Both the position numbers and the translations under genes were made by a program. A stretch of DNA of 64,000 nucleotides from a virus. Every line of letters begins with the position of its first letter. The stretch's first letter is position 1. The stretch is from IMG/VR virus record IMGVR_UViG_3300027743_000001, positions 22,543 to 86,542 of that record, one strand, 5' to 3'. A model generated the notes under the pieces. That model was not told the origin of the DNA. It ran no database searches and worked only from the letters and a program-made list of their open reading frames with translations. This document shows, piece after piece, positions 14,701 to 40,240 of the stretch.

Positions 14701-16937
14701 CCGCCGTTGTCGATCCGCCAGGACGTGCCTTCCTTGTCGACGAACACGTTGTCCCAACCGAGGCCGAAGACATCCCAGTTCGAGAGCCAAGCGTCAACGA
14801 CAAAGTTCTTGCGGATCTGTGTCAACCACTCCTTGTCCTTCAGCTTCTCATTGATCGTCTGGCTGAGTTCCTCGCCCTCCACGATCTCGGAGTAGATGTT
14901 CTTTCCGTCGTAGTCGACGTTCGGCACCGGGACGCCAGCCGCTGAGTACAGATCATTGGCCAGCTCCTCCACCTTGCCGTGATCTTGGCTCTTGGGCTTC
15001 TTGACGTAGAACTTCTTGGCCGGGCCGCCGGCAGGGTCCGGGATGCTGTACATCCCGCCTTCATTGCTGCCGCCCTGCCCGCCGATCTTCGTAGACCCAG
15101 CGTCATCCTTGGTGAGGTGGGCAATCTTCTTTGGCGCGCGGTAGACCTGGTTGGGGCGGAGCGTCAGCTCCTTCTCGCCCGGGGTCGGCGTGCCAGACAG
15201 GTCGGACGGCTGAACCTTCAACTCAGCTTTGTCGTCTGACCCCTTGAGTATGTCCTTGACCTGCCCGTACTTCCACTTGCCATTCTTCAGGAACTTGATG
15301 ATCCCGAACTTGTTAATGAACCGGCCGTCCGCGCCACGCGGGTGTTCCCACGGCTCGAAGGCAGGAGCGGCCACGATCGGTTCCAGGAGGGGTGTCACTT
15401 CGATGCTGTTGAACAGGCCCAGCTTCTCCCAGCCGGTACCGTCGTCAGCCAGGGAGGCGTACATGACGTTGTTGCCGTACTCGTCGTCAACCGTGATATA
15501 GGTCTTCTCGTCTTCCCAGCCGGGGCCATGTGTGACCTTCATGGAGACGGTGTTGGGGTCGTCGTGCGCTCCGGTAAAAGCGAAATCGAACTTGCTCTCC
15601 CCGACCCAGAGAGAGATCGTGTCAAAGGATACTGTGGACGGAAGATGGCTCGGGTCTGTGACCTCGATCAGGAAGTCGTTGCCGTAGCCCAGAGTGATGT
15701 GGGGTATCCACTCCGGGTGCTGCTCAACCGTGCTCATCTGGTAGGCAACAACCGGGTCTGCAACGACAGCATCCCTCACACACGACAGTGCCACGTCCTC
15801 AAGCAGGAGCACCGCCGCGTCGTGGTCCCCCAGCCGGCCCCGCCCGTTCACCTCGGTCTCGATCGGGGTGCACTGCTTGGCCAGGTCGCCGAGACACTTG
15901 AGCACGTGATCCAGTTCGTCGGTTGACATGTCAGCGCTGAGGTAAGCCAGGGTCACGTGCGGGTCGTCGTCCACTACGAGCGCATTGACCGGGTCGTCAG
16001 CTGAGGTACGGCAAACGATCACCGCCGTAGGCAGCTCCTCCACCGGCTCCATCTCGTCCAGGATCAGGTCCGCGAGCAGTGCCTGAGGGAAGTTGTGCCC
16101 GACCGGCGGCCCGTAGTCGTACCCCATCGTGTAGTCAAAGACGAACGGGGAGAGGTCGGCCGATCCGGTGATCGCGTTCAGCTCCTTGGTGCGCCGCTTC
16201 ACCTCATTAGATGCTCTCTTGACACGGGCTTTAGAGATCCTGACTTCTAGTTCCTGCATCTTCCTGCGGGCGCGTAGAGTGCGCAGCTCTTTGACCCCCT
16301 TGGGGGTCAATCCAGGTTGTCCGCTAGCGGTGTCAGACGCCTTCTCAAGCTCCTTGATCCGGGCATCATGTTGTCCAACCTCTGCTTGCTGCTTAACCAG
16401 CGACGCTTTCTGGATCTCCAGTGCGTCTTGCGCCCGTTCAATGCTGAGCTTGGCCTTTGCCTTGGAAGCCTTCAGTCTCTTCGCCTTGTTTGCTGCCGAG
16501 GTTCCGGAACCCTTGGAGGAGCCACCCCCGCCGCCGCCGCCGGACTTCTTCTTGACTCCGCCCTCATCCTTTGCCTTGGAGAGATCTTGGTTGAAGTATT
16601 TGGCCAGCACGTTGAGGGTCTGCACGTTGAGCGTGCCCGTGGGCTTCAGGCCCAGCCCAGTCTGATAGTCCTTGAGCGCCCGTGCGGTCTCCGGGCCGAA
16701 GTAGCCAGTGGCTGGCAGGTTGTAGCCGGCTCGCCGGAGCGCTTCCTGCAGCCGGGTGACGGCCGGCCCTTGTGCTCCGACCCCTAGGCCACCATCTTTT
16801 GTGCTGCCCTGACCGGACGTGCTGAACTTGCCGCCCGTGTCCCGCTTGACCTGTGACTCCTCGAAAGCGCGTAGCCGCTGGTTCGGGTCCTTGGCCCGAC
16901 TCGGCCGCTCCCGCCTCTGTTGGCCTGGTTGCGTCAC
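8745..16937 (-). CDS. Giant 2730-aa multidomain head-region protein (peptidoglycan-binding, 2H phosphoesterase, PI3/4K- or HipA-like kinase, SH3-like repeats)
   Basis: VTRLQEALRRAGY...GYFGPETARALKDYQ; HVTLAY and HITLGY; GSNEGG/FYVKK/DAWLSNWD/RIDNGG; lies directly after the portal gene. Confidence 0.8.
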   Translation of the reverse strand: MTQPGQQRRERPSRAKDPNQRLRAFEESQVKRDTGGKFSTSGQGSTKDGGLGVGAQGPAVTRLQEALRRAGYNLPATGYFGPETARALKDYQTGLGLKPTGTLNVQTLNVLAKYFNQDLSKAKDEGGVKKKSGGGGGGGSSKGSGTSAANKAKRLKASKAKAKLSIERAQDALEIQKASLVKQQAEVGQHDARIKELEKASDTASGQPGLTPKGVKELRTLRARRKMQELEVRISKARVKRASNEVKRRTKELNAITGSADLSPFVFDYTMGYDYGPPVGHNFPQALLADLILDEMEPVEELPTAVIVCRTSADDPVNALVVDDDPHVTLAYLSADMSTDELDHVLKCLGDLAKQCTPIETEVNGRGRLGDHDAAVLLLEDVALSCVRDAVVADPVVAYQMSTVEQHPEWIPHITLGYGNDFLIEVTDPSHLPSTVSFDTISLWVGESKFDFAFTGAHDDPNTVSMKVTHGPGWEDEKTYITVDDEYGNNVMYASLADDGTGWEKLGLFNSIEVTPLLEPIVAAPAFEPWEHPRGADGRFINKFGIIKFLKNGKWKYGQVKDILKGSDDKAELKVQPSDLSGTPTPGEKELTLRPNQVYRAPKKIAHLTKDDAGSTKIGGQGGSNEGGMYSIPDPAGGPAKKFYVKKPKSQDHGKVEELANDLYSAAGVPVPNVDYDGKNIYSEIVEGEELSQTINEKLKDKEWLTQIRKNFVVDAWLSNWDVFGLGWDNVFVDKEGTSWRIDNGGALTYRAQGEPKGGAFGNKVMELETMRSGKKAAIFGENVMPKEDELDGAVRVLAISPEEIDDLVSERGLPQSLADTLKSRRRYIADHYGLPLPEASKPINVPDVAENNGLSRKWFPMNLGQALDMASPGDYVRIGSGTIRIGVDLTDGSLMEPDELQDQRWALKDKYGSKTDVHYQSPLTNLERPHHGAALDAADLHTIKFERGDTITDPNGHTYEVMGVSPAKKKVMLRDKGNTTSVILDTYALGSGPYIVERWDPPPPEAQKPNLPEAAEAEVEEIVQLLEPVPVPEPEVEISEPPQKTGMAATVETQVKEDIKAAAEAQAKSVVSDDKGMLLGDGTEAGPGAKVVSKKDGKTYTYVKKKGYSAVVKDEDGKELMKAASTLTQPGKTPAANVVGAKTPMTGDGKVPKLGMTALAKDGHQGKIVMISPDGKFVFIENTSGVRKRKSVSTVTITEEAGATVDTTPEPEPEPVSVPEPPSPMAPAVTAVSQVDEAKTLAAWIDSGVLKVGHKVSPISSPDNSYEIIAITDTTVRMIDKNETPFTVLKTVLNDFTVDTTPTVIPESSGLPESAGATGPHGGPMVPAQGLKPGESVHNGDDVVVVTFVDAPEGSSLVYLAFSDGTVGTYDADAPLVEKTETSIFDEDGAYLPAHQIIPHLEPGDEVEAGQYLFVVVENNLPLGDDKVAVVVDAGTVSPQLLSKQDFGPNVSIRVTRKGSDYIDAELTQGQIDAANDMATKLKAGPGTTNDHKLTGNQGQDAAGWALNQALKYDDAKYPIFVSGSGTFWRRHTTSGWQMWTVNAAGTGGTWVGDGDQEGPMGLKNFHQGTGTEELTLPNGYKVSVQSGNQVAKIGNEYYIASPASSNWYHIDGDDSIDVSTTVNKYNSDGSPYQVNLYHDPFSNQVDVVDIAPAVPDQVATGDKINSFYEVSSWESVVYISDSNTYYIQSAPGASWWPIKDDGQLGGASITHHVMGLVPNDKKTLVHQAEGDPPPFPTQAASDAEAPSVQGMFNKLFNPDPNVGPTGGTFNGLTTQPDDIVIKIQTPTIPDQYLVKQPDGKYNAISADGTINTTVGHDESTVLAFLAQGGIGDAKMSVAQGTLGEYDALTPPDLSGPGPVSASPQIVDVEAVTGIEFNGKTYELQPGEQLYKTLYNVYVSDPNADPDDPLMYQLYQDYETKKLEKAEFAVYGSNFSGMQKVDLSVAPPSAFPQTAASGANDAIGAPHPSTMEITLASDFKGMDLKPGDWIYVSYGDPHKPNEYMQMVQIDGEFIDFHHYSVGHEPGAVAVDQGKHSMFLTNKMPSNYAVYAAKPPVAEPKPSLPGAPSEDVVLAWGGPLTKDGYIPTAGMHVTGKGPMHGKIISLSKNKQSAVVLTSSGEKSTRLVTALRLDTEEYGPYQAPLAPLEVPKGMALAVDTPAEALGKTLQDGKQRAIVTNSTGIRGGEMFTTRAIGPSGKKYNRVIFALSKEQRATFASNLASGDTQEQGDWVRTKKPTESIAVGERVSIRPSSSSQPELKSQWRPDNSGVNPPNYEVVDVQDDAATGGKIVTFKSLSDGSTVTTPWSAGHTYTVTAWDPTKIKVLQTGQFSLSQSAQARGWTVAQDGGLSGMQADGTLYVEPGQGVPLAKSAFPDFGTSRNVRLVASNGVVIEVIDPASEYKNDSRFGMTNIFLPEGATDGDLSAAMAELGLGGYSPMTQSSAKQQARVFLSTMVSFDQANADNTQGMSDEQMFKKAGEWMGITDLGWQDVRVGVDESIGKVSYFWSERAIAAMKAKSKMNLVVKGTKRNNADVIASTALYGNVNSMTKRLQGAVDAPTGKGLGQSAVHDSSVYAGHGAYASAKKYNYLPDHNDQAVYISGGLMIYHHPEALYGRIGDMRGSLEDVYGNPDNGSNIMRSLTVWENIKDYYISGGIAPEQASMIAAPSQKEVDSAIAKLKAKGIVSINGVPLERYIVTIAKAKTMRPSDLPPVYMPPNLRNLLDLPESYEV

Positions 16938-29756: not shown

Positions 29757-30006
29757 AGTGGGCCGCCATCACGCTCGGCGCCTGCGCGGGGATCTGGCTG
29801 GCGGTATGGATCATGGAAGGCTGGCACAGACAAAAGTGGCACTTGATGAGGACACTCTCGAACTCCCCGTTGTCTCCTCCTACTACTCTAACTACCCGGC
29901 TCGGCGTGCGCCGTCGAGCGGCCAAGCAGTGGCTACGGTGTCGGTCGCTCTGACCATCGTGCTGGCTCTCCTGGCACTCCTCTGGGCTCTCATGTGAGGA
30001 TCTGAC

Positions 30007-30384
30007 GTGGCTAGACATTCTCTGTCAACCAGGCACCGTCCCGTGCCCCGGTGGGCTGCCGCGATGCTCGGCGGGCTGGTCGGATTCCTCGCCGCCATGC
30101 TCATCCTGAGTGTGCCCATGACTGTCAACCAGTCCGCGAACCCGACCGCCGGGGATGTGGAGTGGGAGTGCACCCTGTCAACCGGTACCTTCCGGATGGT
30201 CTTGGAGAACGCGGGAGATGCCCCGCGCAGCTACGCGATCCTGTTGGAGATCTCCTCCGCGCGGAAGGAAGTGCTCAGCTCCCGTGCCGTGCACGTCGTA
30301 GACGTAGCAGCTGGAGAGCGTCGCATCGTCACCGAGACCTTGCCGGTCACGACCGGAAACGACTGTGACCTGTGGGTCTGGTAG
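30007..30384 (+). CDS. Membrane-anchored beta-rich protein
   Basis: N-terminal transmembrane helix, then an Ig-like segment with two Cys. Confidence 0.55.
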   Translation: MARHSLSTRHRPVPRWAAAMLGGLVGFLAAMLILSVPMTVNQSANPTAGDVEWECTLSTGTFRMVLENAGDAPRSYAILLEISSARKEVLSSRAVHVVDVAAGERRIVTETLPVTTGNDCDLWVW

Positions 30385-30424
30385 TAAGATAGAGACATCC
30401 TCATACGGAGGGAGGGGAAAAGAG

Positions 30425-30547
30425 ATGCCGAAGTACGACGGTCCTGAAGTTGATGTTGACGTGAGTGGTGTCAACTGGGGCAACCTGCTGATCGGCGCCA
30501 TCCTCGGTCTGATTGCCGGGGTGCTCCTCGGGGTATTTGTGTTCTAA
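30425..30547 (+). CDS. 40-aa single-helix hydrophobic peptide
   Basis: RBS GGAGG, then MPKYDG...WGNLLIGAILGLIAGVLLGVFVF; terminator downstream. Confidence 0.65.
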   Translation: MPKYDGPEVDVDVSGVNWGNLLIGAILGLIAGVLLGVFVF

Positions 30548-30661
30548 GTCCCGATAGCGCGCGCTGTGGATCGTGGAGCCGGGCATGAGCCCGGCTCTTT
30601 TGCGTGCCCAGAGCGGCTACACTTGAGGGTGCTCCTACGCTGTGGGAGGGAGGGAAACATC

Positions 30662-30745
30662 ATGAGTTACGACTGGGGCGGCGTCTTCATCGGGCTGGTC
30701 ATTGGCCTTGTCGCTGGCATCCTTCTGGGTGTCTTCGTCTTCTAG
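30662..30745 (+). CDS. 27-aa hydrophobic peptide, paralog of 30425
   Basis: RBS GGAGG, then MSYDWGGVFIGLVIGLVAGILLGVFVF; same terminator stem GAGCCGGGC. Confidence 0.65.
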   Translation: MSYDWGGVFIGLVIGLVAGILLGVFVF

Positions 30746-31836
30746 TGGATCCTGTGCGCACGGGAGCCGGGCTTAGGCCCGGCTCTTTTTGTGGAGTTCT
30801 GGTTGACAGACCCTTATACTCCTCAGATGGTCATACTCCACACCAACATCCGCGTGGGTGACAGGATCCAGGTGCGCGGCCCGAGAGACTGGGAAATCGT
30901 CAAGGTCGCTTGGATCTCAGACAACGGGCTGACGTTGTGTGACAACCAGGGGAGATACCACAACACCCTTCAGGTCGCCCTGGTGACCACCGGATTCACT
31001 CGCCAGTTGGCCATGATGCACTTCATCGACGGCTCGAAGCTGGCCATCCTGATCCACTCGCTCGGAGTCCAGGAAACCCCTGCCGGCGGCTATGAGCTGG
31101 TCTACTGGACCCCGGACGGGCATGAGGAGCAGCGCGTGCCGCGCGACGTCGTACGCTCGATCACATTCGGGGACACACCATGATCTCTGATCCTTTTCAG
31201 CAGGGCTACAAAGATGCGATCTACGCGGACCAGGATTGCCTGCAGCACGGATGCGACCCGGACGTGATGATCTATCTTCCGGTGGACCCCGACATGTCAA
31301 CCACGGACTTCGCTGACTACTCGCAGGGAGCTTACGCCGCGATCGGCTGGGAGCGCGTCGTGGTGATGGACAGGGACCTGGTATGAGTGAGGACACCCCG
31401 ACCGCCGTTGGTGGCTACTGGGAAGACTGGAGTTCCCCCACCGAAGGGAAGTGGGTCTACACCACGGAGCCGTTCGAAGAGATCGCTGTGATCGAGCTTG
31501 GCGGTCCCGGTGGGCGTTGGCGGATCATCATGGAGGACTACAACGATGCTCTCCCCGATGCCATCCCTCCCATGTCAACCGCTGACCTGAAGCGCTTCGC
31601 CGAGGGTCTCCACTCGCTGGGGTACTACGGCAACATCCAGTGGTCGCGCGACCAGCGCGAGTCCGGCGCCGGCTACATCTGATGCGCTCCCCCTGGCTCT
31701 GGCTGTGGGTTTACCTGATCTTCGTGCTCGTGGTTGTGATCTCCTCTGCTCTTGAGCGCCTGCCGTTCCAGTTGTTCCGGTGACCAAATACACAAACCGT
31801 TGCCACTCGTTGACATAGGTTGCTAGTGTTCTACCT

Positions 31837-32367
31837 ATGAAACTACGAAACCTTCTCATGACCCTGCCCCTGATCGTCGGCGCCGGACTGGTGGTTGACA
31901 GCGCGCCAGCGGCGGCAGCTGCCAAGCCCCGTGTCGTCTGGGTGTACGTGCAAAACAAGAACACGGTCACCAAATACTGGCCGATCCACCGCGCTCTCAA
32001 GTTCGTGGACCAGTACACAGGAACTCAGTTCAAGTACGGGAAGTGCCCGGCCAGCGGCAAGTACAAGTGCATCACGATCAAGGAAGACTGGAAGCTGCCC
32101 CCGCTCTATGCCGGCATGGCCAACTTCATAGGACCCTACGTCCAGCTCCCCAACGGAGAAACCGACTGGAGCACCGTCATCCAGCTCCAGCCTCGCGAGC
32201 GTGGCCGCTCCTGGTGGATACGTTACGACACCGTGATCCACGAGCTGGGGCACGCGATGGGGATCTACACCCACAACGCAGACTCCTCCCGGACCATGTA
32301 CTGGATGGTCCGAGACAACAAACCGTCGTTCAGCCCGTCCGAAAAGAGAATCCTGCGCAGGCACTGA
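31837..32367 (+). CDS. Secreted metzincin-like zinc metallopeptidase
   Basis: Signal peptide, HELGHAMGIYTH, Met-turn TMY; leaderless after TAGTGT; terminator at ~32381-32411. Confidence 0.8.
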   Translation: MKLRNLLMTLPLIVGAGLVVDSAPAAAAAKPRVVWVYVQNKNTVTKYWPIHRALKFVDQYTGTQFKYGKCPASGKYKCITIKEDWKLPPLYAGMANFIGPYVQLPNGETDWSTVIQLQPRERGRSWWIRYDTVIHELGHAMGIYTHNADSSRTMYWMVRDNKPSFSPSEKRILRRH

Positions 32368-32418
32368 GCGGTTGACACAGGAAACCCCCCGGCACACCCG
32401 GGGGGTTTCTTCGTGCAC

Positions 32419-32751
32419 TTACGGGTAGGTCGGCTCAGTCGGCTGAACCGGCATCGGCTCGGTCGGCTGCGGCTGCTCCGGCTGCTGCGGCTGAGGAATC
32501 TCTTCCTTAACCTCCGTCACGAAAAGCTCGTACGCCTCTTTCAGCGCGTCGAACCTCGCTTTGGCAACCTTCTTGGCCGTGTTCTTGGCGTCGGTCTTGT
32601 CCTCGGCATACGCCTCCTTGGCAGCCTCGAACTTAGCCTCCGCCGCTTTCTTCAGCTCCATGAGCTGAGCGATGGCACCCGCCGTGGGCGCCGGCTCCGG
32701 GGTGTCCCCGTTCTCATAGTCGCTGTGTGCATGCGTAGCGTCGTTACACAT
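32419..32751 (-). CDS. Hypothetical helical protein with Pro/Gln tail
   Basis: Lys/Ala/Glu-rich ORF with RBS GGGGGTG. Confidence 0.55.
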   Translation of the reverse strand: MCNDATHAHSDYENGDTPEPAPTAGAIAQLMELKKAAEAKFEAAKEAYAEDKTDAKNTAKKVAKARFDALKEAYELFVTEVKEEIPQPQQPEQPQPTEPMPVQPTEPTYP

Positions 32752-33752
32752 TGATCTTCACCCCCTCTCAGATCACCCCTATAGTGTACGTCACACCCCC
32801 TGTGTTGACAGGCGTTGACCCACGAGCTACAGTAGGGATGTACCCACTACTGAGGAGCCGAAAATGATCCGCTGCGCACACTGCAAGGGCCGTCACCAGT
32901 ACGTTGCCGACGTCCGCTACTGCGCTGACATGGCCGCCCACTGGGCCGAGGTTCAGGCGCAGGAAGAGGCCGACGCCGAGGCTCGGCAGGAGCGCTGGAT
33001 CGAAGAGGCGGAGTACCGGCTGGCCTACGCCGAGAATGACCGTGAGGTCTGGTAGCCCCCCGTTGACATCCGAGATATAGTCTAGCTATCACCACCACAA
33101 GGAGTCGATCATGCAGAACCTCGCTCACGTTTTCATCGAGAAGCCCCAGTCCGAGATCGTGTCAACCATGGTCGCGCTGGCCAACCAGGCCCACGAGACA
33201 TGGCACCGGGCCAGCCAGGAGGGCGCGGCGCCGTCCTACATCATCGCGCTGCACGCGCGCTATCAGGCATTTCAGATAGCAGCTGAGGTCGCTCAGGGGC
33301 TGGAGTCCCGCGCATGAAGAACGACTGCAAGTCCGAACTACCTGCGCCGTTCTACGGGGTCCAGATCCATCACCAGTGCTCGGCCGGAGCAACCGGCCAC
33401 ACGGGCAATCACTACTGCGGGTGCTCGTACGAGTGGAACACCGAACTGATCATCTTGCACGCGCCCGACCAGGCGACTGCCAAACCGAGGACATCGATAT
33501 GATGCAAGACCCCGTCCACCTGTGGAATCGCCTCTCGCAGGAAGACATCGCGTGTCAACTGGAGCACCTCGCCCGGCAGGCTGAGGCTGTCTGGGAGGAG
33601 GCTGTCAACCAGGAAGGCATGGCTCCCACCATCCTCGCTGCAATGCGGGTACGTGCGCACGAGACCAGGCAGGCTGCGCTGATCGCTGCCGGCCGGAACA
33701 ACATCATGTTGGACGTGATCCAGAGGACGGTGACCCGGGAGTGGGAAAAGGC

Positions 33753-35201
33753 ATGAGGCGCCGGCTGGCTGACGATAGTGGCGCTTCTCTCATTATGGCG
33801 CTGATCTTCATCGTGGTCGTGGCCGTGGTGATGGGCGCTGTGCTTACCCTCACAGACGCGAACCTGCGCAACACCACAGCTCTGAGGGACCGAGCCGGCA
33901 AGGACTACGGCGCTGATGGCGCTGCCAAGATCGCGATCAAGCAGCTGGAGAATGACCACTACCTTGGAGGCGACTGCCCCGCGCTGAACGTCCAGGCTGG
34001 CTACGCGGTCCAGTGTGTGGCCGATGAGGGCAACTCCACCGTGGGGGACATCAACTCTGTCAACCGGCAGGCAACCGCGCTGCTCGCAATGGCTCCGGCC
34101 GGACAGGGCCTCTACTTCAACATTCAGGGCAACCCAGCTACACAGTCGATCAAGGTCAAGGGTGGGCTGTTCTCGCACTCTGACTTCGTGGTTGATCACG
34201 GCTGGCTGGATTCTCTCGGCCCGGTGACCGCGCGGGGTGACTGCCTGCTGCTGAACGACACGGCCAGGCTCACGTCTTCTAAGCAGGACTGCAAGATCAT
34301 GACGGCTGTCAACCGGCTGGGCAAGGATCCGAACTATTCCGTTCCGGCCGTGACCGGGGATGCCACTGTGCAGCCATGCACCAAGACCAAGAAGACCCCC
34401 TACGTGGTGACGCCCGGCATTCTCGACGCTGCCGACATGATCGTGCTGAACAAGCTGACCTCAAACCACGACGACTGCAAGGATGTGGTGATCTGGCTCA
34501 AACCAGGTGATTACCAGTTCAACGCGGTGTGGGAGATCAAGTCTGGCAAGGTGATTGGTGGAGGCAGCGGCGCGCCGCCGGACACTGTGGACCCCGAGAA
34601 GCAGGGATACTGCCCCGCTCCCATCCCGCTGGAGGGCCAGGAAGATACGTGGACCCCGCCGGCTGCCGACCTCGGAGTGACGATCACGTTCGGCCCATCC
34701 GCGCAGCTGTCAATGGTGCCTACGCCGACCAAGGTCACTCCCTCCATGGAGCTGTGCGGCGACTACGAGAAGAACAAGCCGCCGATCGTGTTCTATGGCA
34801 GGGCCGCTGCGCCAGATACTCTGGCCATCAAGACAGACGCTAACGCCGACTTCCGGCTGTACGTCCAGGGAACCACGTACCTGCCAACATCTGTGATTGA
34901 CCTTCACCTTAAGAAGGACGTGCTTCCGTTCTTCCGCTCTGGCATCACGTCCTACCGGTTCCGTGTAGACGGGGTTGGCAACGCCAGCTCGGTCACGCCG
35001 CTGGTGGAGACTCCGGACGCTGAGGGCACCAGCAACTCCGGCATGGTGTGGCTGGAGGTCCGTAGCACGGATGACAACACCGTTCGGCTGCGGGCCAAGG
35101 TGTACTTCTACATGGCCAAGCAGACCGAGGATGAGCCGCCGGTTCCGATTGACCCGCCCCAGTACGCCAGCAAGGTTGTCAGCTGGGCCACGCAACGATA
35201 G
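33753..35201 (+). CDS. PilX-like / minor pilin with large C-terminal domain
   Basis: Class-III-like signal RRRLADDSG-ASLIMALIFIVVVAVV and YGADGAA..AI; Cys-containing beta-rich body. Confidence 0.7.
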   Translation: MRRRLADDSGASLIMALIFIVVVAVVMGAVLTLTDANLRNTTALRDRAGKDYGADGAAKIAIKQLENDHYLGGDCPALNVQAGYAVQCVADEGNSTVGDINSVNRQATALLAMAPAGQGLYFNIQGNPATQSIKVKGGLFSHSDFVVDHGWLDSLGPVTARGDCLLLNDTARLTSSKQDCKIMTAVNRLGKDPNYSVPAVTGDATVQPCTKTKKTPYVVTPGILDAADMIVLNKLTSNHDDCKDVVIWLKPGDYQFNAVWEIKSGKVIGGGSGAPPDTVDPEKQGYCPAPIPLEGQEDTWTPPAADLGVTITFGPSAQLSMVPTPTKVTPSMELCGDYEKNKPPIVFYGRAAAPDTLAIKTDANADFRLYVQGTTYLPTSVIDLHLKKDVLPFFRSGITSYRFRVDGVGNASSVTPLVETPDAEGTSNSGMVWLEVRSTDDNTVRLRAKVYFYMAKQTEDEPPVPIDPPQYASKVVSWATQR

Positions 35202-35337
35202 GCACACAGCAAGAAGCCCCCGGGTATTACTTCCCCGGGGGCTTCTTTGGTGTTTGCTCAACTTCACCACGCTGGGAGGATCCATGCCACCTCCTGCTCC
35301 CATCACTGTAGCTTGCCAGGTATCTAGTTTGCAAGTG

Positions 35338-35366
35338 TTGACATCCTGCGTACTACCGGCTAGGTT
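35338..35366 (+). promoter_or_regulatory. SigA-type promoter of the pilin gene
   Basis: TTGACA-17-TAGGTT. Confidence 0.6.
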
Positions 35367-35411
35367 GGTCCTACACGCGGTGCTTGACCGCCTCACACCA
35401 CTGGAGTATTC

Positions 35412-35759
35412 ATGCGTACCCGTCTCATGAAGCGCTACGCCGACCTTCGCAAGAAGGAAGACGGCTTCACCCTGATCGAGCTGCTGATCGTGATCGTCAT
35501 CCTCGGCGTGCTGGCCGGCGTCGTCGTCTTCGCCGTCTCCGGCATCAACAACAAGGGCGAGGTCGCAGCCTGCAAGGCCGAGGCTAAGACCATTGAGGTT
35601 GCCTCCGAGGCTTACTATGCGCAGAAGGGCACCTACGCCGCTGCCGTCTTTGGCGCTGCCCCCATCAACAGCCTTGAGGCTGCCGGCCTGCTTCACGCCG
35701 ACACGCTAGACCCCAAGATCACGTACACCGCTGGAGTCGTGACCAACACCTGCGGATAA
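35412..35759 (+). CDS. Type IV major pilin-like protein
   Basis: Canonical prepilin site KKEDG/FTLIELLIVIVILGVLAGVVVFAV, ASEAYYAQ and a Cys pair; own terminator at ~35768-35806. Confidence 0.9.
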   Translation: MRTRLMKRYADLRKKEDGFTLIELLIVIVILGVLAGVVVFAVSGINNKGEVAACKAEAKTIEVASEAYYAQKGTYAAAVFGAAPINSLEAAGLLHADTLDPKITYTAGVVTNTCG

Positions 35760-35813
35760 GCAACAAGCAAAGGGCCGGACACCCGGGTGGGGTGTCCGGC
35801 CCTTCTGTGTTGC

Positions 35814-36488
35814 CTAGAACTTGTCCCGGAACTTCAGGATGATGCCATTGCTCAGGGTGTCTGCCAGGTGAGCGATGTGATTCTGCGAAGCGTCGTAAGC
35901 CGTGAGGCTGTCCCCGAACCGCTTCTGCAGCTCGAACGTGATCTCAGAAATCAGCTGGCTGAGGTGGATCTGCATCGCGTCCCGCATGGCCTGTTGTGGC
36001 CAGTGCACCGGGTCCGCGTTGCTCAGGAAGTCCGCGATCTGGTTTCCGTTGATCCGCCACGCGGTAACGGCTGCCGAGAGCGCTCCCTGGTTGTTGGCCT
36101 TGGCTGCTGTCAGCACAGCTACCGCTCCCGCGATGTGCGCCTTCAGGAGCCCTGTCAACCGGGCTCCGTTCGTCTCCCCGTAGTAGGGGTTGATCGAACC
36201 GCCGATGTCCTCCTGGTTGCGCAGGAGCCGAGACGCCGTAGCGTTGAACCGCTCGTTCGGCTGAGGCTCAGCGATGAACTCCACAATGGCCAGTCGCGTG
36301 TACGCGACGTGCTCGAACCACAGCTGCCGCATCTTGTCGTGGAACACTCCCTCGGCCAGCGTCGCTGGAGGAGCCACTCGTGTGGGGGTTACAGCAACGG
36401 TGGGGGTCGGAGTCGGATTCGCTTTCGTGCAAGCGGCCATGGTCAGCGCGAGGCTAGCCACCACGAAAAGCGAGAGAATTTTTCTCAT
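35814..36488 (-). CDS. Lipoprotein with His-containing helical bundle
   Basis: Lipobox MAAC, Pro/Thr linker, LWFEHVAYTR, LKAHI, MQIHL and HIAHLAD. Confidence 0.7.
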   Translation of the reverse strand: MRKILSLFVVASLALTMAACTKANPTPTPTVAVTPTRVAPPATLAEGVFHDKMRQLWFEHVAYTRLAIVEFIAEPQPNERFNATASRLLRNQEDIGGSINPYYGETNGARLTGLLKAHIAGAVAVLTAAKANNQGALSAAVTAWRINGNQIADFLSNADPVHWPQQAMRDAMQIHLSQLISEITFELQKRFGDSLTAYDASQNHIAHLADTLSNGIILKFRDKF

Positions 36489-36929
36489 TGTCTGCCCTTT
36501 CGTCCGGGTTGCTGGAGCGTAACACGTGGTCTGGGTCACAAAGAAGGCCCGTTTGTTGACACCCGTTGACAGACGAGCTAGTGTTTGTCATGTGAGCGGG
36601 AAACACCGCTCCTCCCCTTCTCCCTTAAGGAGGTGGTCATCATGACCGCCATCAACACCCTCCCCACCACCAACCTCCACTACACCTACAAGACCGTGGG
36701 CCAGCTCATCCTGGTCAACGTCGGAGACCTCAACGTGGGGCACATCGCGTGCTACCCAGAGGGCTTCAAGCTCTACTTCGCCGGGCAGGACGAGCCGGCC
36801 GGTGGCGGCGAGCTGCTGCCGACCCTGGCGGCGTGCGAGCACGTGCTCGGCCAGGCTGCGCTGCTGGCTCTGAAGGCCAAGCTGGGGGCGTGACCCCCAC
36901 GGGGGCGGCGAAAGCCGCCCCAAGAATTC

Positions 36930-36955
36930 CTCAGACGCTCCGCTGCGGAGCCGAT
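36930..36955 (+). promoter_or_regulatory. Sigma28/FliA/WhiG-like promoter
   Basis: CTCA-N16-GCCGAT. Confidence 0.65.
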
Positions 36956-38469
36956 AGGTCAGTTGTGAGCGAGGGAAAAGCCCCGCTCCCCCAAACAAAG
37001 GAGGCCCATCATGGCCAGCAAGACCATCATCTCCAGCAAGGCCAACTACGCGGCGCAGGACGCGGCTGCAGCTGCGGTTCCGGCCGGCTCGCTGGTCAAG
37101 TACAGCTACCCATTCGGCGGCAAGATCTTCTTCGCCACCGGCAAGGTGGTCAAGGCTGAGGGCAGCCAGCTGCACGTCGAGATCCTGTCTCACGATGAGT
37201 TCCCGGAGTACGTAGGGAAGACCATGTCCTGGTCCGTCTGCTGGTGCTCCAAGGTCTGAGCCCCCACGGGGGAGCCGCCAGGCTCCCCCTCCACCCCTCC
37301 CGAGAGGAACCGCTATGCAGATCCAGGTCACCGCCTACCCGAGCGTCAAGGTCCAGCTGGAGGGCAAGGAATGCACCGTCCCCGCGTGGATCGCCAACTA
37401 CGCCAGTGGCAACCCCAACGCTCGGGAGACCCTGGTCAAGAACACCCCGGAAGGCCCGATGATCGTGGACGTTCGGGTAATTTCCACCCTGGCCGACTAC
37501 AAGGAGCACACCACCTTGACCAGCAAGGACATCCTGGCCGCGATAGAGATCACTTACGGCAAGCAGCCCACCAAGGCTCGGCGCGCGGAGCTGGCCAAGT
37601 TGGGTGAGCTGCTCCGGGATGCTCTCAACGCCGAGGAAGAGGGCCAGTGACCTGCCGCCACTGTGGGGCCGCGCTCACGTACGAGCGCGGCCGGGAGGTC
37701 TACCTGGCCGCCGGGTCGATGCTGTGCACCCCGGCCGCTCGTGGAGCCCGCTGTGCTTTCGAGTCCTACCGAGCGGTTGACATCAACCCGCTGGAGCTGA
37801 AGTTCCACGATGGCTCGTGCAACTGCCAGGCCAGCATCCTGCACGTCCCGACCTTCTGAGGAGCCCCCCAGATGACCGCCCCTACGCCCACCCTGCCGTA
37901 CCTCCGGCCACGTTCGAACGGCCACATCCTCCACATCCCGGTTGACATGGAAGCTTCCGGCTGGCAGCCAGCCCTGTGCGGCACGCTCGGCCGGGAGCCG
38001 GACGTCTACCGCCGCGTCGACAAGATCTGCCGGATCTGCACTAGTCGCCTGGTCAACGGCAATGTGAGCCACGCCACTGTCTAGTGGTTGGCATCCGTTG
38101 ACACGGGCTGCTACAGTTCAGAGGTAAGCGAGAGTCACCACCAAGAGGAGCCATCATGACCACCACCGCCGCGATCATCCGGGAGTTCGCCACCGTCAAG
38201 GCCAACCGGGCGGAAGCCTTCTCCCAGACCGACTTCGTGACCGAGGGTCTTCAGGAGCGGCTGGTCAACTTCGTGAACAGTGCAGCGATCTGGGCCAGCA
38301 GCCCGCGCTCCGTGCACGTCCGGGGCAACGTCGGCCCAGACACCTACATCCTGGCCGAGCTGCTCGATCACGCCGCTGGCAACGCGGGCATGGTCTCCGG
38401 TCTGATCACCACCGATGACGCCGCCGGGCTGGTCACTCTGAGCTGGTGACGCAGGCCACACGGGAAGGG

Positions 38470-38495
38470 CTAAGGCCCTTCCCGGACCGGACGAT
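38470..38495 (+). promoter_or_regulatory. Sigma28/FliA/WhiG-like promoter
   Basis: CTAA-N16-GACGAT. Confidence 0.6.
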
Positions 38496-38819
38496 AGGAA
38501 TCATGTGAGCGGGGGAAAAGCCCCCGCCCCCGAGGCCCCAGGAGGCCGCCATGAACACCACTGCCGCGCTTGAGGCCGAGGCCGCGAAGTACAAGAGCGA
38601 GATCGCCAAGATCTTCGAGGTTCAGCGGTTCGTGGCTGCCAAGCAGCCGATCCCAATGCAGCTGGCAGCTGCCGCGCGGGTGTTGGCCAACAGGGGCCAC
38701 CTGCGCTGGTCGGACCGGGCCGGCCGGTGGATGTTCACCCCGGAGGGCCAGAAGTTCGCGGCGCAGAGTCGGAAGTACGGCCGGCGGCTCGGCCACTAGA
38801 AAAACTTTCCGGGGGAATC

Positions 38820-38845
38820 CTCAGGTGGTTCCCCCGGGTACCGAT
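38820..38845 (+). promoter_or_regulatory. Sigma28/FliA/WhiG-like promoter
   Basis: CTCA-N16-ACCGAT. Confidence 0.6.
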
Positions 38846-39251
38846 AGGAATCATGTAGCGCGGGGAATGGCCCCGCCACCGAGGCCCCTTGGAGGAGCCA
38901 TGAACGTCAAGCCCATCAGCGCCAACAACGTCGCTTTCTACAAGTACGGCAAGGTCATCGCCGTTGCCAGCCCAGAGCGGGGCGGCTGGAAGCTGGTTGA
39001 CATGTACGGCGAGGCCGTGGGTGGTGGCGAGCCGCTGCCGAGCCTGGGGGCGGCCGAGGCCGTCGTCCTCTCGAAGACCTATCAGGAGTACGTAGACAAG
39101 GCCCACGCCATGGCCGGCTGAGCAGACAAACTGGCGGCGCCGTCCCGGGAGGGGCGGCGCGGCCTTTTTGCATTTACAGAACCCCGATGAGCAGAAGAAC
39201 TACCAGGACGACCAAGATCACGCCGAGGATCCACATGTAAATCACCCCCTC

Positions 39252-39641
39252 CTAATCAGGGACGATCTCCCCATCCACAATATCGGTATCCGCCGGCTGC
39301 GGCGCCGCCGGCTCGTGCGGCCGAGCTGCGATCTGTGTCAACCGGTCCCGCAGGGCCGCGATAGCTCCGTCGTTCTGTGGGCCGCTGTCGTCGGCGTTGT
39401 CAACCGGTGCCGCTAGGCGAACCGCCACGTCCACCCGCGCGGGCAGGCCCACGCGGTCCAGGACGGCCGTAGCGGCATTCACCCGGGCCAGGTCATTGCG
39501 GCCGTTCTGCATCACGTCTGTGAGCGTGTCAACCGACAGGCTCGCGGCGCTGGCCAGGCCGAGCCAGGTTTCGCGCACGAGCGCGACCGCCTCGGAGAAG
39601 TTCGTCGGGCGGTCTGGCAGATTGGCGCTGGTCTCCATCAC
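39252..39641 (-). CDS. Possible terminase small subunit-like protein
   Basis: LTDVM...ARVNAATAVLDRVG and C-terminal IVDGEIV resemble actinophage TerS-like proteins. Confidence 0.4.
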   Translation of the reverse strand: MMETSANLPDRPTNFSEAVALVRETWLGLASAASLSVDTLTDVMQNGRNDLARVNAATAVLDRVGLPARVDVAVRLAAPVDNADDSGPQNDGAIAALRDRLTQIAARPHEPAAPQPADTDIVDGEIVPD

Positions 39642-39670
39642 TCCAGCATATCGCCTGTACGCTGTGGGCC

Positions 39671-40240
39671 ATGAATAGACGTTCTGTACTTCGTGCCGGA
39701 ATCCTGCTCCCCGTCGCCTCAGCTCTCGGCTCCGGCATGGCGGCTACGTCGTGCTCGCCGGTCGGGGGCAAGGTCACTGTCAACTGGCACCTGCCAAACT
39801 CAATCGTCGAGGTCCGCCACCCCGCGCAGGAGGTGTTCCCCCGGCTCCGGGAGATCTCCGCAGAGAACAAACGCGGGTTTGAGCGGGTGCGCTTCTGGTT
39901 TGACACGCGCATCCCGACCTACAACTGGGAGTACGTGCCGGCCAACGGCATCGTCGGGCCGGGCACGGGCGAGCCGGTCCCGATCGAGGGCCAGCAGTTC
40001 CTCCGCGTGCAGTTCGTGGAGTCCCTGGCCCACACGGATGAGGGAGCGCCTTCCATCACCAGCGCTCCCGGCCGGCCGCTGTTCGGGTTTGATCTTCTTC
40101 AGGACTGGGTGCTCGCCGGGGACTTCGAAGCTCAGGTAGATCTTGGCATCGGGCTCCGCTCGGCTGCCCCGCTGGAGGTCCGAACCGTGGAGGGCGAAGA
40201 TCGCGGCCTGAAGTGGGTGGCTTTCGACTTCCGCGCCTAG
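39671..40240 (+). CDS. Tat-exported AMIN-like domain (lipo)protein
   Basis: MNRRSVL twin-arginine signal; ERVRFWF...GDFEAQVDLGIG. Confidence 0.65.
   Translation: MNRRSVLRAGILLPVASALGSGMAATSCSPVGGKVTVNWHLPNSIVEVRHPAQEVFPRLREISAENKRGFERVRFWFDTRIPTYNWEYVPANGIVGPGTGEPVPIEGQQFLRVQFVESLAHTDEGAPSITSAPGRPLFGFDLLQDWVLAGDFEAQVDLGIGLRSAAPLEVRTVEGEDRGLKWVAFDFRA

What the first reader, a model, noticed from the sequence alone, without database searches (positions are those of the whole stretch)
33753..35806. Phage-encoded type IV pilin plus PilX-like protein without assembly machinery
Seen: a textbook prepilin (G/FTLIELLIV) with its own promoter and terminator, next to a 482-aa protein with a class-III-like signal. 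No PilB, PilC or PilD is present in the window. Known: type IV pili are common phage receptors, and actinomycete zoospores use them for adhesion. Inference: the phage feeds its own subunits into the host pilus to change receptor identity (superinfection exclusion), poison assembly, or alter adhesion of infected cells.
Basis: partly seen in the sequence, partly recalled or inferred. Interest (0 to 1): 0.8.

Follow-up and report, generated by a model that had tools for sequence, protein, structure and literature searches.

The report
Phage carries pilus shaft and tip genes
A large phage of actinomycete bacteria carries its own copies of two building blocks of the host's type IV pilus, the shaft subunit and a big tip protein, but none of the machinery to assemble them, so it probably re-dresses the host's pilus, a trick recently shown in other phages.

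Summary
The pilin ORF 35412-35759 (+) is a prepilin with G|FTLIELL (PF07963, E 1.4e-9). The 482-aa ORF starts at ATG 33753. No PilB, PilC or PilD signature was found in the whole 86.5-kb virus record, which has terminal repeats.

New here: both genes are homologues of the first and last structural genes of one conserved actinobacterial operon, pilin-pilT-pilB-pilC-minor pilin-minor pilin-big protein-pilD, seen in 34 bacterial loci. The big protein belongs to no Pfam family. Its model (pLDDT 86.9) shows a long pilin-like N-terminal helix and an ice-binding-protein-like beta-solenoid. That architecture matches the Thermus tip pilin ComZ (PMC6561018).

A related 86-kb phage carries the same pair in swapped order. 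Both orders coexist in one sediment metagenome. The big gene is under purifying selection (dN/dS 0.16). The pilin head domain is hypervariable.

The pair is not a chimeric insert. The most likely function is host-assembled pilus subunits that change the receptor surface. Prophage FimU (PMC12952977) and archaeal virus SNJ2 (PMC12426801) are published precedents, so this is a new variant of a known kind. Function is untested. The scan's index lists this same stretch from another window (e1-6112174).

The parts
33753..35201 (+). Gene for a 482-aa tip-pilin-like protein. It has a basic leader, DDSG, a long hydrophobic alpha-1 helix without Glu5, then a beta-solenoid domain. It is translationally coupled (ATGA) to the upstream 84-aa ORF.
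   Evidence: ORF. Start inferred. It belongs to a family of 566 representative proteins at E<=0.001. AF2 model has pLDDT 86.9 with a helix at 13-71 in 486-aa numbering. Fold matches: ice-binding proteins Z 11.1-12.2, ComZ Z 11.1, GspK Z 7.8. dN/dS against L002 is 0.16.
35206..35253 (+). Terminator-like hairpin followed by a T-rich run. It closes the operon that ends with the 482-aa gene and forms the 5' edge of the pilin cassette.
   Evidence: Fold of -32.7 kcal/mol, z -6.0, with 0 of 200 shuffles as good. A hairpin stands at the same place before the pilin cassette in L002.
35338..35366 (+). Promoter-like site TTGACA-17 nt-TAGGTT, 45 nt upstream of the pilin ATG.
   Evidence: Read and identical in L002. 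There are 2 matches in the window at up to 1 mismatch against 0.08 expected. The consensus scan did not list it. Function is inferred.
35412..35759 (+). Major prepilin gene, 115 aa. An 18-aa leader ends in Gly, then FTLIE (Glu5). It has a roughly 52-residue alpha-1 helix, a small head, and Cys54 and Cys114.
   Evidence: PF07963 at E 1.4e-9. There are 2463 relatives at E<=0.001 among 2640 candidates. G18, F19, E23, C54 and C114 are invariant in 40 sequences. Model has pLDDT 83.7 with a helix at 21-72. The profile hits 19 solved pilins or pseudopilins.
35764..35812 (.). Bidirectional terminator-like hairpin with a 16-bp stem. It lies between the pilin gene and the convergent lipoprotein gene.
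   Evidence: -36.8 kcal/mol, z -5.3.

Best explanation
The phage appears lytic, since no integrase was found. It carries two structural genes captured from a Micromonosporaceae-type type IV pilus operon.

Gene (i) is a major prepilin. Its N-terminal assembly helix is almost host-identical and its exposed head is hypervariable. Gene (ii) is a 482-aa protein built like a tip pilin: a GspK/ComZ-type N-terminal helix without Glu5, plus a beta-solenoid.

Proposed mechanism. After infection both proteins enter the membrane. The host prepilin peptidase PilD cleaves them. The host PilB/PilC motor builds them into the host's pili together with the host's two small minor pilins. Pili on infected cells then carry a phage-specified shaft surface and tip.

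The most likely benefit is receptor masking. [quoted passage not shown] This is superinfection exclusion or protection of progeny.

What is shown: gene identity, origin, completeness, selection, absence of machinery, and authenticity of the locus. What is inferred: processing, incorporation into pili, and the exclusion phenotype.
For: 1. Phage context. Terminase, portal/protease, tail fibre, primase and helicase are present. The record is 86.5 kb with direct terminal repeats and CheckV completeness of 100%. PF00589 and PF00239 are absent.

2. Origin. In 34 bacterial loci that hold a homologue of the big protein, the order is pilin-pilT-pilB-pilC-minor1-minor2-big-pilD. Counts are PilT-like 30, PilB 30, PilC 33, minor1 33, minor2 34 and PilD 32 of 34. 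A relative of the phage pilin lies about 5.3-6.6 kb upstream in 29 of 34. The other 5 loci hold under 5 kb of upstream DNA.

3. No machinery in the phage. Only one N_methyl match occurs in the whole record.

4. Competence for assembly. G-1, F1, E5, C54 and C114 are invariant. G-1 of the big protein is at least 90% conserved and 7 of its Cys are invariant or nearly so.

5. Tip architecture. The model has a helix at 13-71. The solenoid matches ice-binding proteins (Z 11.1-12.2) and ComZ (Z 11.1, 227 residues aligned). GspK, EpsI, PilE and PilX-type pilin domains match at Z 6.5-8.1, spanning model residues about 50 to 486. The ComZ authors made the same two comparisons and argued that such a protein fits only at the tip (PMC6561018, section 7 read).

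6. Selection. dN/dS is 0.16 for the big gene. The pilin N-half is 88% identical between the two phages, with dN/dS 0.24. The pilin head is only 35% identical. Five phage-lineage pilins share 82-85% identity in the N-half, yet each head is nearest to a different bacterial pilin.

7. Not an artefact. A second phage, L002 (86,173 bp), has both genes between the same flanking genes. The genes' GC is 61.8% against 62.5% for the phage and 64-72% for host loci. Logan contigs identical to the window bridge orf84 to the big gene and the pilin to the lipoprotein gene.

8. Precedent. Prophage FimU is built into Pseudomonas pili and blocks tip-binding phages, and PilA-like genes occur in virulent phages (PMC12952977, sections 17-18 read). 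Pilins of the SNJ2 provirus hijack the host machinery (PMC12426801, abstract read).
Against: No experiment or expression data exist. No RNA run holds the stretch, which is not evidence either way.

The host is unknown. The nearest bacterial big-protein homologues are only 33-42% identical. The phage clade sits on a long stem of 1.12 changes per site, so compatibility with any host's minor pilins is unproven.

The phage version lacks two Cys-bearing loops present in most bacterial homologues (alignment).

Nothing shows that this phage or its competitors use pili as a receptor.

The pilin-domain fold matches (Z 6.5-8.1) lie in the range the tool calls possibly only a common arrangement. Foldseek found nothing at E<=0.001 for either model.

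Lifestyle was judged from only two recombinase families.
Confidence: 0.5

Rival explanations
1. Gain of function. The phage subunits build or boost pili on infected cells to change host behaviour, such as adhesion, aggregation, biofilm formation or DNA uptake through a ComZ-like tip. Alternatively they provide a receptor for a partner virus, as in SNJ2. Exclusion would not be the purpose.
For: SNJ2-encoded pili dominate the host surface, promote biofilm and motility, and serve as the receptor for another virus (PMC12426801, abstract). ComZ, the closest architecture, is a DNA-binding tip receptor (PMC6561018, abstract). NCBI labels several bacterial relatives of the pilin as competence pilin ComGC. 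The pilin has its own strong promoter-like site.
Against: No integrase was found. A short lytic cycle gives little time for behavioural benefits. Hypervariable heads on a conserved stem fit an arms race over recognition better than a fixed adhesive function. Machinery and the small minor pilins must still come from the host.
Confidence: 0.25
2. Poisoning. The phage proteins jam the host pilus machine as dominant-negative subunits or a blocking cap. Pili disappear and the receptor is removed.
For: Overexpressing a single minor pilin can disrupt assembly, and truncated phage PilA-like proteins have been proposed to inhibit assembly (PMC12952977, sections 17-18). The phage supplies only 1 of the 3 minor-pilin-type genes of the operon. 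This could upset stoichiometry. The phage big protein has lost two Cys-bearing loops.
Against: The pilin is full length, with Glu5 and both Cys. A poison would not need a diversifying head. The whole 482-aa protein, solenoid included, is under purifying selection, with dN/dS 0.11-0.26 in four segments.
Confidence: 0.15
3. Virion or entry role. The pilin-like proteins are parts of the phage particle or of its DNA-delivery device and do not modify the host pilus.
For: None is direct. Beta-solenoids are common in tail spikes, and several spikes appear at Z 6-7.
Against: The genes lie outside the structural block, among small plus-strand genes with their own promoter-like and terminator-like sites. 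Both carry class III signal-type N-termini, and their homologues sit in pil operons. No PHROG structural family matches the big protein.
Confidence: 0.05
4. Assembly artefact. A piece of host DNA was joined into a phage contig.
For: The source metagenome holds two strains about 87% alike with different gene orders. That situation can confuse assemblers. No window-identical contig was listed across 35057-35105 (table 3).
Against: A separately assembled related phage contig has both genes between the same phage genes. A third relative exists: P0271 and P0002 each have a longest contig of 4309 bases. Window-identical Logan contigs bridge two of the three junctions with 0 differences. The genes' GC equals the phage's. 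The proteins are only 33-58% identical to any bacterial homologue found.
Confidence: 0.02

Closest known systems
Prophage-encoded FimU (P-FimU) of F10-like Pseudomonas aeruginosa phages (Sztanko et al., Cell Rep 2026, PMC12952977; abstract and sections 17-18 read)
   Same: A phage carries a homologue of a host type IV pilus structural component without any assembly genes. The phage copies are highly diverse. The paper also reports PilA-like genes in Xylella prophages and in four groups of non-temperate phages, and predicts that the strategy is widespread.
   Different: Here the host is an actinomycete (monoderm), not Pseudomonas. Two components are carried together, the shaft pilin and a large tip-type protein. 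The tip protein belongs to an unannotated family, not to FimU. No integrase was found, so expression from a lysogen is unlikely. Nothing is tested experimentally. The paper's Table S3 could not be opened because supplements are closed, so I cannot exclude that related phages are listed there.
Pilins PilA1 and PilA2 of the haloarchaeal provirus SNJ2 (Xiang et al., Cell Rep 2025, PMC12426801; abstract and outline read)
   Same: Two adjacent virus-encoded type IV pilins use the host's secretion and assembly machinery.
   Different: That system is archaeal and temperate. Both genes are major pilins that form their own filaments. Their effect is to provide a receptor for another virus and to promote biofilm formation, not to exclude.
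ComZ, competence-pilus tip pilin of Thermus thermophilus (Salleh et al., mBio 2019, PMC6561018; abstract and section 7 read; PDB 6qvi)
   Same: The architecture is a GspK-like pilin domain plus a large ice-binding-protein-like beta-solenoid. My model matches 6qvi_A at Z 11.1 (227 residues, rmsd 4.8) and ice-binding proteins at Z 11.1-12.2.
   Different: There is no detectable sequence relationship: the A2 profile found no pilin in the PDB at E<=1. In the model the solenoid appears to be inserted after the first beta-strand, with three strands following. In ComZ it lies between the last two strands. ComZ is a cellular DNA receptor, not a phage protein.
GspK / PilX-class large minor (pseudo)pilins (NF037980, PF14341)
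   Same: They share a basic leader, Gly at -1, a hydrophobic helix lacking Glu5, a position as the last pilin-type gene of the operon, and a domain inserted into the pilin fold. That GspK lacks Glu5 is recalled, not tested here.
   Different: Scores are far below the family cut-offs. GspK reached 19.6 bits against 130. PilX_N reached at best E 0.18 in 7 of 19 relatives and gave none for the window protein.
Type IV pilus operon of actinomycetes (for example the zoospore pili of Actinoplanes missouriensis; Kimura et al., J Bacteriol 2019; title seen only in the reference list of PMC11522434, paper not held)
   Same: The bacterial homologues of both phage genes lie in a compact operon, pilin-pilT-pilB-pilC-minor pilins-big protein-pilD, in Micromonosporaceae, Nocardioidaceae, Pseudonocardiaceae and others.
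   Different: I could not read that paper, so I cannot say whether its cluster is the same one. The phage carries only the first and last structural genes.

Membership tests
Type IV (pre)pilin (PF07963 / TIGR02532) | Class III signal: a short basic leader ending in Gly, then Phe or Met, a hydrophobic stretch, and Glu at +5 | tested here: met
   EDG|FTLIE is present. PF07963 scores 37.5 bits against 21.2, and TIGR02532 scores 32 against 16.3. G18, F19 and E23 are invariant in 40 sequences.
Type IV (pre)pilin (PF07963 / TIGR02532) | An N-terminal alpha-helix of about 50 residues followed by a small beta-sheet head | tested here: met
   The AF2 model has pLDDT 83.7, a helix at 21-72 and a beta-hairpin at 103-112. 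The profile matches 19 solved pilins or pseudopilins, best E 6.5e-14. Foldseek found nothing at E<=0.001, and 15 of its 16 weak rows are pilins.
Type IV (pre)pilin (PF07963 / TIGR02532) | Cleavage and N-methylation by a prepilin peptidase, and polymerisation by a PilB/PilC machine | not testable with these tools
   This needs biochemistry. The phage encodes none of these enzymes.
Large tip minor pilin (GspK / PilX_N / ComZ-like) | Membership by sequence profile (NF037980 GspK, PF14341 PilX_N) | tested here: not met
   GspK scored 19.6 bits against a cut-off of 130. The window protein has no Pfam hit at E<=1. PilX_N matched 7 of 19 relatives at best E 0.18.
Large tip minor pilin (GspK / PilX_N / ComZ-like) | Pilin-type N-terminus with Gly at -1 and no Glu5 | tested here: met
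   The sequence reads DDSG|ASLIM. The Gly is conserved in at least 90% of 51 sequences, and +5 is never conserved as Glu.
Large tip minor pilin (GspK / PilX_N / ComZ-like) | Pilin fold with a large inserted domain | tested here: inconclusive
   The solenoid match is clear: ice-binding proteins Z 11.1-12.2 and ComZ Z 11.1. The pilin-domain matches (EpsI 8.1, GspK 7.8, PilE 6.7, PilX 6.5) lie in the tool's grey zone.
Large tip minor pilin (GspK / PilX_N / ComZ-like) | Gene lies in a pilus operon directly after the small minor pilins | tested here: met
   This holds for the bacterial homologues. A minor-pilin gene ends just upstream in 34 of 34 loci, and PilC was found in 33 of 34.
Phage-encoded pilus-component mimicry (P-FimU type anti-phage defence) | A phage-borne homologue of a host pilus structural protein, with no assembly genes in the phage | tested here: met
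Phage-encoded pilus-component mimicry (P-FimU type anti-phage defence) | High diversity of the exposed part among phage copies | tested here: met
   The pilin head is 35% identical between two phages whose neighbouring genes are 80-88% identical. Five phage-lineage pilins carry five different heads. The big protein is not diverse, at 88-95% identity.
Phage-encoded pilus-component mimicry (P-FimU type anti-phage defence) | Incorporation into the pilus and a block of phage adsorption | not testable with these tools
   This needs expression, labelling and adsorption assays.
Phage-encoded pilus-component mimicry (P-FimU type anti-phage defence) | Expressed from a prophage | tested here: not met
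   No tyrosine or serine recombinase was found in the complete record. This resembles the non-temperate phages with PilA-like genes noted in PMC12952977, section 17.

The most novel reading that the evidence does not exclude
The two genes form a portable pilus re-skinning kit, shaft plus tip. A lineage of actinophages shuffles it (cassette order is polymorphic within one sample) and re-heads it by recombination with bacterial pilin genes. This would reveal a phage-versus-phage arms race fought on the type IV pili of sporulating actinomycetes. It would also give the first functional handle on an unannotated, widespread family of ComZ-like tip pilins of Actinomycetota. A bolder reading is that the phage tip protein retargets what the pilus binds, whether DNA, surfaces or other cells, and does not merely hide it.
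Probability: 0.3. Interest if true: 0.7.

Novelty: new variant of a known kind. Interest (0 to 1): 0.52.

Why it matters
Viruses that supply their own pilus subunits to a host machine were demonstrated only recently: archaeal SNJ2 in 2025 and Pseudomonas prophage FimU in 2026. The FimU authors predicted that the strategy is widespread.

This locus would extend it in three ways:
- to Actinomycetota;
- to a phage that appears lytic;
- to a two-component form covering both the shaft and the tip.

It also points to a conserved but unannotated actinobacterial tip-pilin family with a ComZ-like beta-solenoid. Natural head-swapped pilin variants are available for testing which surfaces pilus phages recognise.

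Tried and rejected
- Complex prediction. Two mature pilins plus the mature big protein gave 'no answer', with scores 0.00 and 0.00. This is neither for nor against binding.
- Expression. No RNA holder was listed among 3 runs, so nothing can be said about expression.
- Foldseek against the PDB. Neither model had a match at E<=0.001. The VIA-align wide search was needed for the big protein.
- Profile of the big-protein family against PDB sequences. The only hit was an antibody chain at E 0.11.
- Cultured phages, INPHARED, 50,697 records. Megablast of 30000-40000, tblastn of the pilin and tblastn of the big protein all found nothing.
- IMG/VR. Only one other contig holds the big protein. The pilin scan found that contig plus one unrelated 90.7-kb contig whose 385-aa prepilin-like gene shares only the N-terminus.
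- Genomic context of P0122, P0002-P0004 and P0271. Whether P0122, the sister of the phage clade, is phage or bacterial is therefore unknown.
- Host assignment. No tRNA lies in the window.
- Literature. 'actinobacteriophage' with 'pilin' returned 11 papers, 10 listed, none by title or abstract about phage-encoded type IV pilins. A five-term search listed 12 of 476 papers, none mentioning actinophages. These two searches do not prove that nothing is in print.
- Kimura et al. 2019 is not held.
- Sigma-70 consensus scan. It found no promoter directly upstream of the pilin. The site I cite has only 3 of 6 matches to TATAAT in its -10 box.

Rows dropped or selected:
- The tree used 41 rows. I removed 5 bacterial rows beforehand (L031, L032, L034, L035, L037) because my ORF extraction gave fragments of 110-450 aa.
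- Alignment A2 used 51 sequences: the window and L002 proteins, 46 of the 150 listed chosen by hand for similar length, and 3.
- Alignment A3 used 35 of the 120 listed plus 5 translated from loci and the window.
Full report
**What is there.** The window is bases 22543-86542 of an 86,542-bp IMG/VR virus record. The record has direct terminal repeats and a CheckV completeness of 100%. PHROG matches identify a large terminase, a portal/protease, a tail fibre, a primase-polymerase and a helicase. No tyrosine or serine recombinase was found in the whole record. It therefore looks like a complete and probably lytic phage genome, although only those two recombinase families were tested.

The flagged stretch lies among many small plus-strand genes. 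ORF 35412-35759 encodes a 115-aa prepilin. It has an 18-residue basic leader ending in Gly, then FTLIELLIVIV. It matches PF07963 at E 1.4e-9, above the gathering score, and also TIGR02532 and several pilin or pseudopilin NCBIfam models through the N-terminus. Its PHROG matches include 3433, 'pilin'.

The large ORF is open from 33741. The start is almost certainly ATG 33753. That ATG overlaps the stop of the upstream 84-aa ORF (ATGA) and corresponds to the start in a related phage.

**Cassette structure.** A strong hairpin followed by a T-rich run closes the operon after the 482-aa gene (35206-35253; -32.7 kcal/mol, z -6.0). TTGACA-17-TAGGTT lies at 35338-35366, and a GGAG lies 9 nt before the ATG. 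A 16-bp bidirectional hairpin follows the pilin stop. The hairpin, the promoter-like site and the pilin recur as one block in the related phage, and the promoter-like stretch is identical there. The consensus promoter scan did not list the site, so its function is inferred.

**No machinery.** T2SSE, T2SSF and Peptidase_A24 each gave no match at E<=1 in the whole record, while the controls responded. Only one N_methyl match exists in the record. PilT, PilB, PilC and PilD of Luedemannella found nothing in the window or the related phage by tblastn.

**Where the genes come from.** The pilin has 2463 relatives at E<=0.001 among 2640 candidates. Named relatives are from Pseudonocardiales, such as Actinokineospora, Kutzneria and Actinophytocola, at 53-62% identity. 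Some are labelled ComGC.

The 482-aa protein has no Pfam or PHROG family. An exhaustive HMMER search nevertheless found 566 representative proteins at E<=0.001, of which 165 were at E<=1e-10. The named ones are 'hypothetical' proteins of Dactylosporangium, Micromonosporaceae, Jatrophihabitans and Marmoricola, and one JGI entry is labelled PilX.

A scan of species-representative genomes returned 34 bacterial loci. In Luedemannella helvata the neighbourhood reads as follows:
- VWA protein
- major pilin
- PilT-like ATPase
- PilB (MshEN + T2SSE)
- PilC (T2SSF)
- minor pilin
- minor pilin
- the 503-aa homologue
- PilD, convergent

Across the 34 loci the same order holds. Counts are PilT-like 30, PilB 30, PilC 33, first minor pilin 33, second minor pilin 34 and PilD 32. 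The gaps fall on truncated contigs. A relative of the phage pilin lies about 5.3-6.6 kb upstream of the homologue in 29 of 34 loci, and the other five hold under 5 kb of upstream DNA. In five host genomes the pilin relative is essentially single copy. The big-protein homologue is patchy, occurring in 19 of 121 sampled genomes of the Luedemannella family. The phage therefore carries the first and the last structural gene of one conserved actinobacterial pilus operon.

**What the big protein is.** Aligned relatives share a basic leader, DD(S/T)G, a hydrophobic helix without Glu at +5, and a set of invariant or nearly invariant cysteines. This fits an exported, disulfide-bonded protein.

The AlphaFold model, built on 51 sequences, has mean pLDDT 86.9 and pTM 0.75. 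It shows a 59-residue N-terminal helix (13-71 in 486-aa numbering) followed by a beta-rich body. Foldseek found nothing at E<=0.001, although ice-binding proteins and Thermus ComZ topped the weak list.

The exhaustive VIA-align search gave two groups of matches. For residues about 105-428 it found ice-binding-protein beta-helices at Z 11.1-12.2 and ComZ (6qvi_A) at Z 11.1, with 227 residues aligned. It also found a series of pilin-fold matches whose aligned ranges span about 50 to 486: EpsI 8.1, GspK 7.8, a Shewanella pilin 7.1, PilE 6.7, ComP 6.7 and PilX 6.5. The latter Z values are in the tool's grey zone.

The ComZ authors describe exactly this pair of similarities, a GspK-like pilin domain plus an FfIBP-like solenoid. 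They argue that such a protein fits only at the pilus tip (PMC6561018, section 7). There is no detectable sequence relationship to ComZ. The insertion point seems to differ, with one strand before and three after the solenoid in my model. I therefore call it ComZ-like in architecture, not a ComZ homologue.

The ESM Atlas places it next to unannotated Actinomycetota clusters. Further out are DUF7305 clusters in which 12-31% of members carry PilX_N. That is a lead, not a test.

**Is it real, and is it used?** A second phage contig of 86,173 bp (L002) has both genes between the same neighbours, the 84-aa ORF upstream and a convergent lipoprotein gene downstream. The order is swapped: pilin cassette first, then the 482-aa gene behind its own hairpin and RBS. 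Database proteins P0271 (90% identical to the big protein) and P0002 (a pilin with the phage-type leader) each have a longest contig of 4309 bases, suggesting a third relative.

In Logan contigs of the run that holds 93% of the stretch's words, both arrangements are present:
- Window-identical contigs (0 differences, depth 12-17) bridge the 84-aa ORF into the big gene and the pilin into the lipoprotein gene.
- A variant about 87% alike (depth 21-25) shows joints 33716>35246, 35546>33752 and 35188>36200, which is the swapped order.
- No window-identical contig was listed over 35057-35105, so the third junction is inferred from the other two.

GC of both genes is 61.8%, like the phage at 62.5% and below the bacterial loci at 64-72%. 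Between the two phages the big gene has dN/dS 0.16 at 88% amino-acid identity, with all four segments between 0.11 and 0.26. The pilin N-half has dN/dS 0.24 at 88% identity. The pilin head (residues 61-115) is only 35% identical.

Five pilins carry the phage-type leader: the window's, L002's, P0002, P0003 and P0004. They are 82-85% identical in the first 62 residues. Each head is closest (51-59%) to a different bacterial pilin, except that P0003 and P0004 resemble each other. G-1, F1, E5, C54 and C114 are invariant.

In a maximum-likelihood tree of 41 big-protein sequences, the three phage sequences form a clade on a long stem (1.12). Their sister is the metagenomic protein P0122 (support 96). 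They sit inside a clade (support 98) with Luedemannella helvata and a Micromonosporaceae MAG. The bacterial sequences otherwise group by family (quick search with SH-aLRT only; five fragmentary rows left out).

**How it most likely works.** Both proteins have what a pilus subunit needs and nothing more. They must therefore be processed by the host's PilD and polymerised by the host's PilB/PilC, with the host's two small minor pilins. The near-host-identical assembly helix would let the phage pilin co-polymerise with or replace the host pilin. The Glu5-less, solenoid-bearing protein would sit at the tip.

A conserved stem with rapidly changing exposed heads is the pattern expected if recognition of the pilus surface is being contested. 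This matches what was found for prophage FimU, which is built into Pseudomonas pili and blocks tip-binding phages. Those authors also noted PilA-like genes in non-temperate phages and suggested exclusion of superinfecting siblings (PMC12952977, sections 17-18).

I put this receptor-masking reading at about 0.5. The narrower claim, that these are functional, host-machinery-dependent pilus subunits, I would put near 0.85.

The alternatives are:
- gain of function, such as more or different pili, adhesion, DNA uptake or a receptor for a partner virus as in SNJ2 (PMC12426801, abstract): 0.25;
- poisoning of the machine: 0.15;
- a virion role: 0.05;
- an assembly artefact: 0.02.

**Comparison and novelty.** The pilin is a member of the type IV pilin class. 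The big protein fails profile membership of PilX_N and GspK. It works like, and is placed like, a GspK/PilX/ComZ-type tip pilin.

The concept of a virus supplying pilus subunits to a host machine is in print. Several things are new here:
- the host phylum;
- the probably lytic lifestyle;
- the shaft and tip carried together;
- the unannotated ComZ-like family;
- the cassette-order polymorphism and head swapping.

I searched cultured phage genomes and IMG/VR, and found the pair only in this small lineage. Two literature searches found no actinophage example.

**Earlier notes of this scan.** The same stretch was noted from another window. Other notes on this genome point to sigma-28-like promoter motifs and to many exported host-like proteins. 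I checked the motif count: 5 matches against 0.68 expected. The pattern was derived from those same sites. I treat these notes as leads that the host may be a motile-spore actinomycete.

Noticed in passing
window 33543-36600; L002 2561-5641: The pilin cassette (hairpin, promoter-like site, pilin) sits after the 482-aa gene in the window and before it in the related phage. Contigs of one sediment metagenome run show both orders at similar depth (12-17 against 21-25).
   Followed up: partly
window 35814-36539 (-): A convergent 241-aa lipoprotein gene with a lipobox-like N-terminus. It has no Pfam, PHROG or NCBIfam family and is only 60% identical between the two phages (dN/dS 0.35). ESM Atlas neighbours are unannotated Actinomycetota proteins. 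It may be another surface-modifying or exclusion gene.
   Followed up: partly
window 31837-32367 (+): A 176-aa protein with a signal peptide and an HELGH motif. It has weak sub-threshold hits to metallopeptidase families M10 and M12A (E 0.006-0.012) and is conserved at 80% in the related phage.
   Followed up: partly
L002 497-1132 (+): The related phage has an extra 211-aa secreted Pro/Thr-rich protein gene between the 99-aa ORF and the metallopeptidase-like gene. The window has only about 155 bp at that position.
   Followed up: no
The pattern was derived from four of these sites, so the excess is partly circular.
   Followed up: partly
window 8745-16937 (-): A 2730-aa ORF with endolysin-like matches near the N-terminus (residues about 47-163) and weak matches to an RNA ligase PHROG (phrog_2659) and to phrog_24711, a family of unknown function, at 306-452. 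It may be a giant tape-measure or virion-associated lysin protein.
   Followed up: no
L003 9938-11095 (+): An unrelated 90.7-kb viral contig encodes a 385-aa protein with a prepilin-type N-terminus. It is 45% identical to the window pilin over residues 19-78 only. This is another virus carrying a pilin-like gene.
   Followed up: no
window 35462-35546: Many short contigs in all three metagenome runs match only this segment, which encodes the conserved pilin N-terminal helix, and then run on into unlike sequence. They are probably bacterial pilin genes of the communities. The shared segment could serve as a recombination site for head swapping (table 7).
   Followed up: no
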